Assembly: GCF_041248615.1 (NCBI RefSeq)
Contig: NZ_CP158426.1
Origin: Escherichia coli
GTDB lineage: Bacteria > Pseudomonadota > Gammaproteobacteria > Enterobacterales > Enterobacteriaceae
Reading direction: 5' to 3' (one strand)
DNA: 64,000 nucleotides
Shown here: positions 60,931 through 64,000 of the stretch, piece after piece
Numbering within the stretch: the first letter of the stretch is position 1
Layout of the letters: every line of letters begins with the position of its first letter
Program-made: the position numbers

Positions 60931-63900
60931 TGATAATCCTCCCGCCAGAAGAATAAAACATAGCCCGGTATACAAGTGTATACCGGGCTTTTTTGATCAA
61001 AATTCCATTTTCACCGTGAATTGCACTTCACGCGGATCGCCAATCTGATTCCCCAGATTATTTGTGGCGATGGAAGAGGTGTAATACGTTTTATCAAACA
61101 GGTTTTTGACGTTTAATTGCAGTGTGACCGGATACTGCAATTTCATTTTGTATGCGGCGAAGGCATCGGCAACGAAATAGCCTGGCAGATAATAGTCAGC
61201 CCCATTGGTTGCCGAACGACGGCTTACGCCATGTCCACCACCGCCAAACGTCAGTGTGTTATTGCCTGGCATGTTATGAATGTCATAGGTCAGGAATAGC
61301 GAACCGGTATGACGAGGAACATTCGGCAATGGTTTCCCTGCATAATCAGGATCCTCCAGAACCTTAGCATCGGTATAGCCGTAGCTGGCAATGATATTAA
61401 TGTTTTCAGTTAATGCTCCCGCAAGGTCGACTTCTACCCCTCTTGAACGAACGCGGCCTGCCGTTTTGGCGATGGTTTCATCACCAATACTTTCGGTATA
61501 CAACACGTTACGTTTATGGATATCAAACAGCGCAATATCTGCGGTTATACCATCGAACAGCTCGAATTTTGCCCCGACTTCGTAAGCATTAGATGATTCC
61601 GGTGGAAGATCTCCGATGTAGCTGGCAATTGACGATTGCGGCATAAATGTTTGCGAATAATTAGCAAATAAGGATACCGATGGCGTCAGTTTGTAGACTA
61701 ACCCCAGTTTGGGCGTCCATTGTTCATCGCGGCTGTCAGTATTGACATTAAAAGGACGGCCTTTACCCGCATACTGCGTGTAATACTGATAGCGGATCCC
61801 GGCGACGGCAATCCAGTTATCGGTCAGATAGAGCGCGTCCTGTGCATAAGCTGAGTAGCTCTCCTGTTTGATCGTCTGATCGCTGTCCGACGCCGAGACA
61901 GTTGTGCATTTGCTGGTATTGCCGTAAACAGGGTTGTAGATATTGAAATCTTTAGCGTTTTTACAGCGAATCATATCTGTGCGCAGAAGATCATAATATT
62001 CATATGACACCCCACCCAGAATCTCATTATAGAACCCAGCAATATCAACATTCCCTTGCAGATCCGCACGAGTAGAATGCATACGCTGGGTAGATCCCTG
62101 AGTTGCATCAACACGCCGTGTCAGCGTTCCTGTCGTTGCATCATACGCGGTAACACGAGCCTGATTGTCGCTGTATTTATCCTGGCTGTAGCTGTAATCA
62201 AAGCGCGCTGTCCACTGGCTATTGAGATGATATTCTGCGTTGAGTTGCGCCAGATCGGACTGACCATTTGTAATATTAAACGGTTCGTCAAAACGTATTT
62301 TTCGATCAACGTTTACGGGCTGTTTCGTCGTAAGGTCGAAAATCGTTCCACGATCGAACGGAGTTTTATAGTCCCGATGGGAATAGAGCATGGTTACTGT
62401 TGCATTATCACCAAACCAGGTGAGTGACGGGGCAATAAATGTACTGCGCTCTTTACCGAAGTTTCGCCAGTAATCTTCATCCTGCACTTCCCCCGTCAGG
62501 CGGTATGCCAGCTGAGTGCCTTCAATGGGACCTGTGATATCAAGTTGCCCAGTGCCTCCGCCAAAACTGGAGGACGTGGCTGAGACAGAACCATGGAATG
62601 TTTTTTCCGGGCGCTTGGTCACGACGTTAATCAATCCACCAGGATCGAGAATGCCATACAGCGTGGAGGCCGGACCTTTTAGCACTTCCACACGTTCTGT
62701 GGCGGCGTTGAAACTGCGAGGAAGTACAGTTCGCAGGCCGTTGGTCATGATGGAGCCATCCCGGTTAGCACCAAACCCACGACGTACAAAGGCGTCCTGA
62801 GTTCCGCCTAATGTATTGGTCTGTACCACGTTACTGACGTTATAAAGCGCTTCATCCAGCGTCGTCGCATTCTGATTTTCCAGAACCTGATCGCTAACCG
62901 TATTGACCACCTGCGGGATATCCAGCATCGGCATATCGGTTAATGTCGCCGTGGAAGTGCTCAGAGGTTGATAACCATCGGTCGCCTCAGTTGCGGTATT
63001 TGCATCCGCTGTAACAGTGATTGTTTCGCCATCTTTGGTCGTTACAGAGTCTGTTGCATAAATCATCGGTGCCGCAAAAAGCAGTGAAAAGAGCGCCCGA
63101 CCTTTGAGTCCTGAGAATGAAGGTGTGAACATAGCCATTTAGTCTGTTATCCCAAAAACTCGCGGATTGTCGCGAGTGAAAATTGTTTCTTATTGCTCAC
63201 TAAGCACTATCCGTTTGTTATTTCGCCATCGGATATGTAATTGAGAATCATTCAATCATGCGGTAATGTAGTAGTAAATGAGAAATAACAAAAAATTGCT
63301 ACATGTGTTTTTATGAGAGGTTAATGCAATTCAATTGATGATAATTTATTAATATTTAATGGTTTTATTTTTATCTTTAAAAATATTTCACCTGTTATTT
63401 ACCTTGTTTTTGTATGGCTTTTAACTTCTTGACTACTACATTTTGTGGCGTCAAACTCTCAAAAGAGAATGAGTTTTATTTTTGTTTGTCTTTGATTAAG
63501 TTGGCGTACACGTGGCACATAACGCAAAAGGGCAGGGGCTGATCCTCGACAATGTTTCTGCCGGGTATCACACGAAAATCATTGTTGATGGCGTTTCTTT
63601 CTCCGTTCCCACAGAAAAAATGACCGTTCTGGTTGGGGCAAACGGCTGTGGAAAGTCGACGTTGCTCAGCACCATTGCACGTATCTTGCAACCTATGGGC
63701 GGCTCGATATTGCTGGATGGTAAAGCGATTCACGAGCAACCAACGAAAGCGTTATCCCGTAGACTTGGGATCTTGCCGCAGTCGCCATTATTGCCGGAGG
63801 GCTTAACCGTTTATGAACTGGTGTCGCGTGGGCGTTTTCCCTGGCAAAATTTCATACGTCAATGGAGCGACGCCGACGAGCAGGCGGTAGAAGAGGCCCT

Positions 63901-64000
63901 GAAATTAACCGGGACGCAGGAGTTTGCGCATTTACCTGTTGAAAAACTCTCTGGTGGGCAGCGCCAGCGTTGCTGGATTGCGATGGTGTTGGCGCAAAAG

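What the first reader, a model, noticed from the sequence alone, without database searches (positions are those of the whole stretch)
60997..64000. TonB-dependent receptor and ABC ATPase after parE, with a candidate Fur box
From memory, K-12 has ygiN/mdaB after parE. Here a 713-aa TonB-dependent receptor is convergent with parE, and a divergently transcribed FhuC/FecE-like ATPase begins at about 63512. The shared AT-rich promoter region contains GTAATTGAGAATCATTCAA (63238-63256), which resembles the Fur consensus GATAATGATAATCATTATC. This looks like an iron-regulated siderophore-uptake module; the rest of it lies beyond the window.
Basis: partly seen in the sequence, partly recalled or inferred. 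Interest (0 to 1): 0.45.

Follow-up and report, generated by a model that had tools for sequence, protein, structure and literature searches.

The report
Known E. coli fit iron-uptake locus
This is the start of the published fit iron-uptake gene cluster that about a third of E. coli strains carry between parE and ygiN, so the finding is correct but ordinary, although comparison across genera maps its so far unmapped regulatory sites quite precisely.

Summary
Window 60997-63138 (-) is an intact 713-aa TonB-dependent siderophore receptor convergent with parE. A FecE/FepC/FhuC-like ABC ATPase starts at GTG 63512 (+) and is cut by the window end. A 373-bp, 30% GC spacer lies between them.

The locus is the published E. 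coli fit system: fitA receptor, fitB ATPase, fitC/D permeases, fitE binding protein and fitR RpiR-type repressor. It is a ~7.3-kb insertion between parE and ygiN, absent from K-12 and present in 1870 of 5426 complete E. coli genomes. Published experiments already show repression by iron/Fur (fitA up 23-fold in a fur mutant) and independently by FitR. The substrate is still unknown.

Its 12/19 consensus match is chance-level (66% of shuffles reach it). However, it is 99% identical in 37 orthologous spacers from nine other genera, against a 57% spacer mean, and it overlaps the inferred fitA -10.

New in-silico detail: a second conserved Fur-like box at the fitB promoter; two invariant inverted 12-mers with helically phased spacing around an IHF-like element, which are candidate FitR operators; and a structured fitA leader.

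Verdict: already known, low interest.

The parts
60962..60989 (.). Bidirectional intrinsic terminator shared by the convergent parE and fitA genes
   Evidence: 12-bp stem with 7 GC pairs and T-runs on both strands. It differs from the hairpin in the 47-bp K-12 parE-ygiN spacer.
60997..63138 (-). fitA: TonB-dependent siderophore receptor, 713 aa. It has a signal peptide, a TonB box ETITVTA, a plug and a 22-strand-type barrel, and no N-terminal signalling domain.
   Evidence: The TonB box was read directly from the translation. Only Plug and barrel domains appear in Pfam.
63139..63243 (-). Inferred fitA 5' leader. Stem-loop 1 is at 63209-63234, a conserved single-stranded motif G(A/G)GCAAU(G/A) at 63192-63200, and stem-loop 2 at 63158-63177, followed by a U-run and the ribosome-binding region.
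   Evidence: Stem-loop 1: four pairs, all with compensatory changes, 97.7% paired, 0/500 shuffles as good, slid controls 21-43%. Stem-loop 2: a hairpin at the same place in all 33 orthologues with unrelated stem sequences. The transcription start is inferred, not measured.
63237..63255 (.). It overlaps the inferred fitA -10 and transcription start.
   Evidence: 12/19 match to the consensus. 99.1% identity in 37 non-Escherichia spacers, against a 57% mean. Always exactly 23 bp from the start of the 12-mer.
63250..63278 (-). Inferred fitA core promoter: -35 TTTACT (63278-63273), 17-bp spacer, extended -10 TG (63258-63257), -10 TTGAAT (63255-63250).
   Evidence: Invariant block CATTTACTACTACA...ATGnTTGAATGATTCTCAATTACA in the alignment of 40 spacers. 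The match is below the promoter scanner's threshold, so this is an inference from conservation and geometry.
63267..63278 (-). Invariant 12-mer A, TTTACTACTACA: candidate FitR operator half overlapping the fitA -35.
   Evidence: Identical in all 40 spacers. The 9-mer core ACTACTACA occurs only at the two promoters in every fit locus.
63341..63355 (.). Central AT-rich element resembling the IHF consensus WATCAANNNNTTR. It reads TATTAATAAATTA on the minus strand here and TATCAATAAATTA in another E. coli.
   Evidence: It is the only semi-conserved block in the otherwise unalignable centre. It lies at fixed distances from both 12-mers: 85-86/77 bp in the short class and 96-97/87-88 bp in the long class.
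63429..63440 (+). Invariant 12-mer B, TTGACTACTACA: inverted copy of 12-mer A. It is a candidate FitR operator half and contains the inferred fitB -35 TTGACT (63429-63434).
   Evidence: Spacing to 12-mer A is 161-163 bp or 183-185 bp in all 40 loci.
63452..63457 (+). Inferred fitB -10 hexamer CAAACT.
   Evidence: The pattern CAnnnT is conserved 17 bp after the -35. The consensus match is weak (3/6). Inferred only.
63465..63483 (.). Fur-like box 2, GAGAATGAGTTTTATTTTT, at the inferred fitB transcription start.
   Evidence: 13/19 match to the consensus, the best in the spacer. 93.3% identity in 37 non-Escherichia spacers. 21% of shuffles reach 13/19.
63512..64000 (+). fitB: ABC transporter ATPase. 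The first 163 of 269 codons are in the window, which cuts the gene.
   Evidence: The full-length protein from L001 scores best against FecE (284 bits), below the 375-bit cutoff.

Best explanation
The region is the left end of the E. coli fit locus, fitA <-> fitBCDE-fitR. This is a ~7.3-kb accessory module inserted between parE and ygiN.

FitA is a TonB-energised outer-membrane gate that takes up a ferric chelate whose identity is still unknown. FitE (periplasmic binding protein), FitC/FitD (FecCD-type permeases) and FitB (ATPase) carry it across the inner membrane.

The two divergent promoters in the 373-bp spacer are shut off by Fe2+-Fur and, independently, by the RpiR-family repressor FitR. 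Both effects are shown in the literature.

The following is inferred here. FitR acts at two invariant inverted 12-mers, TT(G/T)ACTACTACA, that overlap both -35 elements. These 12-mers are probably held together in a DNA loop around a central IHF-like bend.
For: Identity of the locus:
- 100% match to E. coli DP051, where the gene order is parE, receptor, ATPase, FecCD, FecCD, iron-siderophore binding protein, MurR/RpiR regulator, ygiN.
- This is the gene set and layout described for fit (PMC2593036).
- A 2026 genome paper lists 'ygiN..parE = fit operon, 7193 bp' (PMC12928451).
- K-12 has only 47 bp at this site.

Protein families: Plug plus barrel, TIGR01783 above its cutoff, HTH_6 plus SIS in FitR, FecCD and Peripla_BP_2 in orthologous loci.

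Regulation, from published experiments:
- Both lacZ fusions are induced about 3-fold by iron depletion.
- FitR shifts the 347-bp spacer fragment in a gel-shift assay.

- An alignment of 40 orthologous spacers shows invariant islands in otherwise divergent DNA. Box 1 is 99.1% identical, box 2 93.3% and the 12-mers 97%, against a 57% mean.
- Box 1 is always exactly 23 bp from 12-mer A.
- The distance between the 12-mers falls into two classes, 161-163 bp and 183-185 bp. These differ by two helical turns, one turn in each arm around the central element.
- Other segments of the spacer vary freely in length.
- The six-gene module, including the HTH_6/SIS regulator, accompanies the 12-mers in Erwinia, Citrobacter and Kluyvera.
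- Established K-12 Fur promoters score 13-16/19 on the same scale.
Against: - The Fur-consensus scores (12/19 and 13/19) are reached by 66% and 21% of shuffled spacers. They sit at or below the low end of four bona fide K-12 Fur regions.
- No footprint or ChIP data were found for this promoter. The 2008 paper states that the Fur and FitR sites are unmapped.
- The inferred -35/-10 elements are weak. The fitA -10, TTGAAT, lacks the usual A at position 2, the fitB -10 matches 3/6, and neither promoter passed the scanner. No transcription start data were available.
- Assigning the 12-mers to FitR rests on co-occurrence only. No fitR-less relative was examined as a negative control.
- The original 2006 paper (PMC1698097) could not be read, so any Fur box it proposed could not be compared.
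Confidence: 0.9

Rival explanations
1. The conserved 19-mer at 63237-63255 is not a Fur operator. It is conserved because it is the core promoter (-10 and start) and/or the binding site of another factor such as FitR. On this view Fur acts only at box 2, at another AT-rich site, or indirectly.
For: The consensus match is chance-level. The block overlaps the inferred -10. The Fur and FitR sites are unmapped.
Against: The invariant block spans about 24 bp, far more than a -10 element. Its core GAGAATCATT resembles the GAGAATGATT in the ryhB Fur box and the GAGAAGCATT at fepB-entC. fitA itself is strongly Fur-repressed, 23-fold. A different, better candidate for FitR exists in the paired 12-mers.
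Confidence: 0.2
2. The receptor is simply a copy or allele of a characterised E. coli receptor (FhuA ferrichrome, FhuE coprogen, Fiu, CirA, IreA), so the module's substrate is already known.
For: The best-scoring equivalog HMMs and solved structures are hydroxamate-type or related receptors: FhuA 230.9 bits, FoxA, and the enantio-pyochelin receptor at E 9e-49. Some databases label Klebsiella 'FitA' as a ferric coprogen receptor.
Against: Every equivalog model scores far below its curated cutoff: FhuA 231 vs 803, FhuE 158 vs 666, Fiu 153 vs 686, IreA 44 vs 1197, CirA 42 vs 745. The ATPase and permeases also fail all equivalog cutoffs. The literature says the substrate is unknown and is not enterobactin (PMC5907654).
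Confidence: 0.05
3. The two invariant 12-mers are only strongly constrained -35/spacer promoter elements, or sites of an unidentified activator. They are not FitR operators, and there is no DNA loop.
For: Each 12-mer begins with a -35-like hexamer (TTGACT, TTTACT). The inferred promoters are weak and might need activation. No binding data exist for the 12-mers.
Against: Sigma-70 does not constrain the six bases after the -35, yet ACTACA is invariant in 40 of 40 loci at both promoters. The distance between the 12-mers is held to within 1 bp inside each of two classes two helical turns apart, although the intervening DNA is unalignable. FitR binds this fragment and represses both promoters.
Confidence: 0.25

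Closest known systems
E. coli fit system, fitABCDE-fitR (Ouyang & Isaacson, Infect Immun 2006; Open Microbiol J 2008, PMC2593036)
   Same: Same six-gene content and layout, with the receptor divergent from ATPase-permease-permease-binding protein-RpiR regulator. Same chromosomal site (ygiN..parE). Same size of bidirectional promoter spacer. Same absence from K-12.
   Different: Nothing detectable. The window holds only fitA, the spacer and the first 60% of fitB. The published work did not map the Fur or FitR sites, for which this analysis proposes positions.
FhuA/FhuBCD ferric hydroxamate uptake of E. coli K-12
   Same: TonB-dependent plug-barrel receptor without a signalling domain, plus a binding-protein-dependent FecCD-type ABC importer. 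Fur-repressed. FhuA is among the closest solved structures (E about 3e-44).
   Different: FitA scores 231 bits against the FhuA equivalog, cutoff 803. The fit permease is two separate polypeptides and not a fused FhuB. fit has a dedicated RpiR-type repressor. The substrate is unknown.
Fec ferric citrate system (FecA, FecBCDE, FecIR)
   Same: FitB and FitC score best against FecE and FecC (284 and 238 bits). Like fec, fit is one of the few E. coli iron transporters with its own regulator in addition to Fur.
   Different: All scores are below the equivalog cutoffs. FitA lacks the N-terminal signalling domain of FecA. Local control is by a cytoplasmic HTH_6/SIS repressor and not by a FecI/FecR sigma/anti-sigma cascade.
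Looped, phase-dependent repression of promoters by a repressor bound at two separated operators, as in the classical E. coli gal, ara and lac systems (from general knowledge)
   Same: Two copies of one operator-like sequence, one at each promoter. Their spacing is conserved in helical phase, and an architectural-protein-like site sits at the apex.
   Different: This is purely inferred for fit. The operators are inverted 12-mers about 162 or 184 bp apart. The regulator would be an RpiR/SIS protein, and no binding, looping or IHF dependence has been tested.

Membership tests
E. coli fit locus (fitABCDER) | Six genes: an outer-membrane receptor transcribed divergently from ATPase, two permeases, a periplasmic binding protein and an HTH/SIS regulator | tested here: met
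   Annotated region of the 100%-identical genome. Pfam for FitA and FitR. Description in PMC2593036.
E. coli fit locus (fitABCDER) | Chromosomal position between ygiN and parE, and absence from K-12 | tested here: met
   PMC12928451 lists GR22 ygiN..parE as the fit operon.
E. coli fit locus (fitABCDER) | Sequence identity to the originally published fit sequence of strain i484 | not testable with these tools
E. coli fit locus (fitABCDER) | Repression by iron/Fur and by FitR | not testable with these tools
   Taken from published experiments. Here there are only conserved candidate sites.
TonB-dependent siderophore receptor (TIGR01783; Pfam Plug + TonB_dep_Rec) | Full-length HMM match above the curated cutoff, with plug and barrel domains | tested here: met
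   372.8 bits vs cutoff 223.5. PF07715 at E 1.9e-16 and PF00593 at E 2.3e-69.
TonB-dependent siderophore receptor (TIGR01783; Pfam Plug + TonB_dep_Rec) | N-terminal signal peptide followed by a TonB box | tested here: met
   Read from the translation...FAAPMIYA/TDSVTTKDGETITVTADA. ETITVTA closely resembles the FhuA TonB box DTITVTA, which is recalled from general knowledge. No signal-peptide predictor was run.
FhuA / FhuE / Fiu / CirA / IreA / FecA / FepA equivalogs | Score at or above the NCBIfam equivalog cutoff | tested here: not met
   FhuA 231/803, FhuE 158/666, Fiu 153/686, FecA 102/1100, IreA 44/1197, CirA 42/745, FepA family 64/493.
FecE / FepC / FhuC ATPase equivalogs | Score at or above the NCBIfam equivalog cutoff for the full-length protein | tested here: not met
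   FecE 284/375, FepC 244/497, FhuC 206/433.
Fur box (19-bp consensus GATAATGATAATCATTATC) | Consensus match better than chance and comparable to proven sites | tested here: inconclusive
   12/19 and 13/19. 66% and 21% of shuffles reach these scores. Proven K-12 regions score 13-16. Conservation of 99% and 93% argues for function.
Fur box (19-bp consensus GATAATGATAATCATTATC) | Binding of Fe2+/Mn2+-Fur to the site | not testable with these tools
   Needs a footprint, FURTA or ChIP. The 2008 paper says the site is unmapped.
RpiR/MurR family regulator (FitR) | N-terminal HTH_6 and C-terminal SIS domain | tested here: met
   PF01418 at E 9.8e-10 and PF01380 at E 1.3e-13. The same architecture is found in Erwinia, Citrobacter and Kluyvera loci.

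The most novel reading that the evidence does not exclude
The fit control region may be a conserved, helically phased repression loop. FitR would bind the two invariant inverted 12-mers TT(G/T)ACTACTACA over both -35 elements. An IHF-like bend at the apex would bring them together, and a Fur box would guard each transcription start. In addition, the fitA mRNA carries a structured leader whose conserved single-stranded motif G(A/G)GCAAUG is complementary to the seed of the Fur-controlled small RNA RyhB (9 bp, GUGAGCAAU, in this window). This would add a post-transcriptional iron input, as is known for cirA. None of this has been described for fit. Rough separate estimates: 12-mers as FitR operators with phased looping about 0.45; RyhB pairing about 0.2.
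Probability: 0.35. Interest if true: 0.4.

Novelty: already known. Interest (0 to 1): 0.15.

Why it matters
The finding itself adds nothing new. The fit locus, its position, its absence from K-12 and its iron/Fur/FitR regulation are all published.

Its practical value is as a marker of non-K-12 lineages. It is present in about a third of complete E. coli genomes and has been proposed as a marker of adherent-invasive and extraintestinal strains.

Two open points give modest residual interest. The transported chelate is still unknown. The operator sites have never been mapped, and the cross-genus footprints here give exact, testable coordinates for them and suggest a looped architecture.

Tried and rejected
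- The 2006 fit paper (PMC1698097) is not held, so its own Fur-box prediction and substrate tests could not be checked.
- Literature searches for Fur ChIP or site mapping at fitA found nothing relevant. A search for newer substrate data found nothing.
- An Rfam scan of 60900-63600 at E up to 1 gave only a spurious microRNA hit on the parE/fitA terminator. The leader is therefore not a described RNA family.
- RNAalifold on the MAFFT alignment recovered only the outer stem of stem-loop 1. Stem-loop 2 is lost because indels misalign it, so it was assessed by folding each sequence separately. The individual z-scores are weak, from -2.1 to +0.8.
- A first RyhB test with whole-length duplexfold produced unrealistic long duplexes and was discarded. 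The restricted test gives a median P of about 0.03, but it was post hoc and the sequences are not independent.
- The upstream ATG inside GGGCAATGA was considered as an alternative fitA start or a leader peptide. It was rejected because it is ATA in E. coli and runs straight into a stop codon in Citrobacter.
- The promoter scanner found no sigma-70-like site in the spacer at its threshold.
- No mobility genes or direct repeats flank the island. It simply replaces the 47-bp K-12 spacer.
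Full report
**1. What is in the sequence**

Window 60997-63138 on the minus strand is an uninterrupted 713-codon ORF.
- Its product has a Plug domain (residues 72-168, E 1.9e-16) and a TonB-dependent receptor beta-barrel (240-680, E 2.3e-69), and nothing else.
- It scores 372.8 bits against the NCBIfam 'TonB-dependent siderophore receptor' subfamily model, whose cutoff is 223.5.
- The N-terminus reads as a signal peptide followed by ETITVTA, a typical TonB box (translation).
- The gene is convergent with parE (59041-60933). A 12-bp-stem hairpin with T-runs on both strands lies between them at 60962-60989.

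On the plus strand an ORF starts at GTG 63512 and runs off the window. Its best family matches are the iron-chelate ATPases FecE, FepC and FhuC.

The spacer between the two genes is 373 bp and 30% GC.

**2. What it is**

The stretch 60900-64000 matches E. coli DP051 at 100%. Across the collection, 1870 of 5426 complete E. coli genomes hold at least 80% of it, at 96.6-100% identity and nearly always on the chromosome.

In DP051 the annotated order is: parE, TonB-dependent siderophore receptor, ABC ATPase, two FecCD permeases, iron-siderophore binding protein, MurR/RpiR regulator, ygiN, mdaB.

K-12 MG1655 has only 47 bp between parE and ygiN. The island replaces that spacer entirely, and there are no repeats or mobility genes at its edges.

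This is the published fit system. Ouyang and Isaacson describe fitA (receptor), fitB (ATPase), fitC/D (permeases), fitE (binding protein) and fitR (HTH plus SIS regulator), with a bidirectional promoter in the fitA-fitB spacer (PMC2593036). A 2026 genome comparison explicitly lists 'GR22, ygiN..parE, fit operon, 7193 bp' (PMC12928451).

The receptor is not a K-12 core gene, and iron-dependent regulation has been demonstrated.

**3. How it works: shown and inferred**

Shown in the literature:
- Both promoter fusions rise about 3-fold on iron depletion.
- Purified FitR shifts the 347-bp spacer fragment.
- The authors state that the exact Fur and FitR sites were not identified.
- A later paper states that the substrate is unknown and is not enterobactin (PMC5907654).

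Follows from the protein families:
- TonB-dependent uptake of a ferric chelate through FitA.
- Transfer to the Peripla_BP_2 protein FitE, then import by the FecCD-type permease and the FitB ATPase.

FitA is not an orthologue of any characterised E. coli receptor. The equivalog scores are far below their cutoffs:

| Equivalog | Score (bits) | Cutoff (bits) |
|---|---|---|
| FhuA | 231 | 803 |
| FhuE | 158 | 666 |
| Fiu | 153 | 686 |
| IreA | 44 | 1197 |
| CirA | 42 | 745 |

Full-length FitB, FitC and FitD likewise fail every equivalog cutoff. The closest solved structures are the enantio-pyochelin receptor, FoxA and FhuA, at E about 1e-44 to 1e-49. This is a family-level relationship only.

**4. 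The candidate Fur box**

The 19-mer matches the consensus GATAATGATAATCATTATC at 12 of 19 positions. A second site at 63465-63483 matches at 13 of 19.

Neither score is meaningful by itself. Of 2000 dinucleotide-preserving shuffles of the spacer, 66% contain a 12/19 match or better and 21% a 13/19 match or better. For calibration, proven Fur-controlled K-12 spacers give 13/19 (fepA-fes), 16/19 (fepD-entS), 15/19 (fepB-entC) and 16/19 (ryhB). The fit boxes therefore sit at or just below the low end.

The decisive evidence is comparative.
- One scan of a species-representative genome collection returned 39 orthologous loci, each with a divergent fitB. They come from Escherichia, Enterobacter, Lelliottia, Silvania, Huaxiibacter, Citrobacter, Kosakonia, Kluyvera, Yokenella, Erwinia, Pantoea and Affinibrenneria.
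- In the alignment of the 40 spacers, most DNA is barely alignable. Mean identity to the window among the 37 non-Escherichia sequences is 57%. A few blocks are essentially invariant.
An 11/19 consensus hit elsewhere in the spacer is only 25% identical.
- Box 1 is part of an invariant ATGnTTGAATGATTCTCAATTACA block. It always lies exactly 23 bp from an upstream invariant 12-mer.

I read this as an extended -10 (TG-n-TTGAAT) with Fur box 1 covering the -10 and the start site of fitA. Box 2 then lies at the start site of fitB, downstream of TTGACT-17 bp-CAAACT.

These promoter elements are weak and were not called by the scanner. They are inferences that need transcription-start mapping.

**5. 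Beyond the finding: candidate FitR operators and a phased loop**

Two 12-mers, TTTACTACTACA (63278-63267, minus-strand sense) and TTGACTACTACA (63429-63440), are inverted copies of one another.
- They are identical in all 40 loci.
- Their 9-mer core occurs nowhere else in any fit locus.
- Their start-to-start distance is 161-163 bp in Escherichia, Enterobacter, Lelliottia, Silvania and Huaxiibacter.
- It is 183-185 bp in Citrobacter, Kosakonia, Kluyvera, Yokenella, Erwinia, Pantoea and Affinibrenneria.
- The difference is two helical turns.
- By contrast, the fitA leader varies from 114 to 266 nt and the fitB-proximal segment from 44 to 109 nt.

The only semi-conserved element in the centre resembles the IHF consensus WATCAANNNNTTR. 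It sits at fixed distances from both 12-mers: 85-86 and 77 bp in the short class, 96-97 and 87-88 bp in the long class. Each arm therefore differs by one helical turn.

The HTH_6/SIS regulator gene accompanies the module in Erwinia, Citrobacter and Kluyvera.

The simplest reading is that FitR, which represses both promoters and binds this fragment, occupies both 12-mers in a loop. This is an inference. No fitR-less control locus was examined.

**6. Beyond the finding: the fitA leader**

Downstream of box 1 the inferred leader contains a stem-loop at 63209-63234.
- Its four outer pairs all show compensatory changes (AU 17/GC 14; UA 22/UG 7/CG 4; CG 23/UA 9/UG 1; CG 30/UA 2).
- 97.7% of cells in this outer stem are paired. 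For the seven-pair test structure (outer plus inner stem), no shuffle out of 500 scored as well, and slid controls gave 21-43% paired.

A second hairpin lies just before the ribosome-binding region in all 33 sequences folded. Its stem sequences are unrelated between genera, though the individual folding z-scores are weak.

Between the two hairpins lies a conserved motif, G(A/G)GCAAUG. It is complementary to nucleotides 41-48 of RyhB.
- The RyhB sequence I used was confirmed in 5424 of 5426 genomes and by Rfam.
- In this window the complementarity is 9 bp, GUGAGCAAU.
- The restricted duplex test gives a median P of about 0.03 against shuffles.
- That test was post hoc, the sequences share ancestry, and two Escherichia relatives have a weaker motif.

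I treat the RyhB pairing as a lead, with a probability of about 0.2.

**7. Comparison, novelty and verdict**

The locus is a member of the published fit system, and that is its closest known relative in every respect tested.
- It works like fhu and fec, but it is not an orthologue of either.
- Like fec, it has a dedicated regulator in addition to Fur, but of a different kind: a cytoplasmic RpiR/SIS repressor and not a sigma/anti-sigma pair.

The only new material is in-silico mapping of the regulatory sites and the phased architecture. This is a modest refinement of a known accessory system.

Interest is 0.15.

Noticed in passing
window 51937-51958: GATGATCATCATCATTGTTATC gives the best Fur-consensus matches in the whole 64-kb window (14/19, twice, overlapping). 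It lies in the divergent zupT-ygiD spacer. It could be chance or a metal-regulator site.
   Followed up: no
L001 20511-21703 (beyond the window, between mdaB and ygiZ): An orphan Hcp-family type VI secretion gene plus a hypothetical gene sit here in strain DP051. K-12 has only a 318-bp mdaB-ygiZ gap, so this is a second strain-specific insertion close to the fit island.
   Followed up: no
L043 600-3666 (Erwinia sp. JUb26): The Erwinia fit operon carries three extra genes between the binding-protein gene and the RpiR regulator gene. One encodes a PepSY_TM protein, the family of periplasmic ferric-siderophore reductases. The other two encode PBP_like_2 proteins. This may hint at how the chelate is processed.
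   Followed up: no
L004-L014, L022, L032, L036, L040 (Enterobacter, Lelliottia, Silvania, Huaxiibacter); L015-L039 (other genera): The fit module lies next to parE in Enterobacter, Lelliottia, Silvania and Huaxiibacter as well, in the same orientation as in E. coli. In Citrobacter, Kosakonia, Kluyvera, Yokenella, Erwinia and Pantoea it sits in unrelated contexts. The parE site is therefore old or a recurrent insertion site.
   Followed up: partly
NZ_CP122681.1 (hit H2): In E. coli ETEC4068 an IS200C transposase gene is inserted within the stretch corresponding to window 60900-64000. It splits the match into two pieces.
   Followed up: no
window ~48900-49650 (L001 1-751): The fimbrial usher gene upstream of zupT is annotated as frameshifted (a pseudogene) in the 100%-identical genome.
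   Followed up: no
window 63512 versus L015-L039 near position 3540: The annotated fitB start differs between clades. Escherichia and Enterobacter use GTG with no obvious Shine-Dalgarno sequence and a 9-residue extension. Citrobacter, Kosakonia, Erwinia and others have AGGAG followed by ATG CCA CAG. The true E. coli start codon is uncertain.
   Followed up: partly
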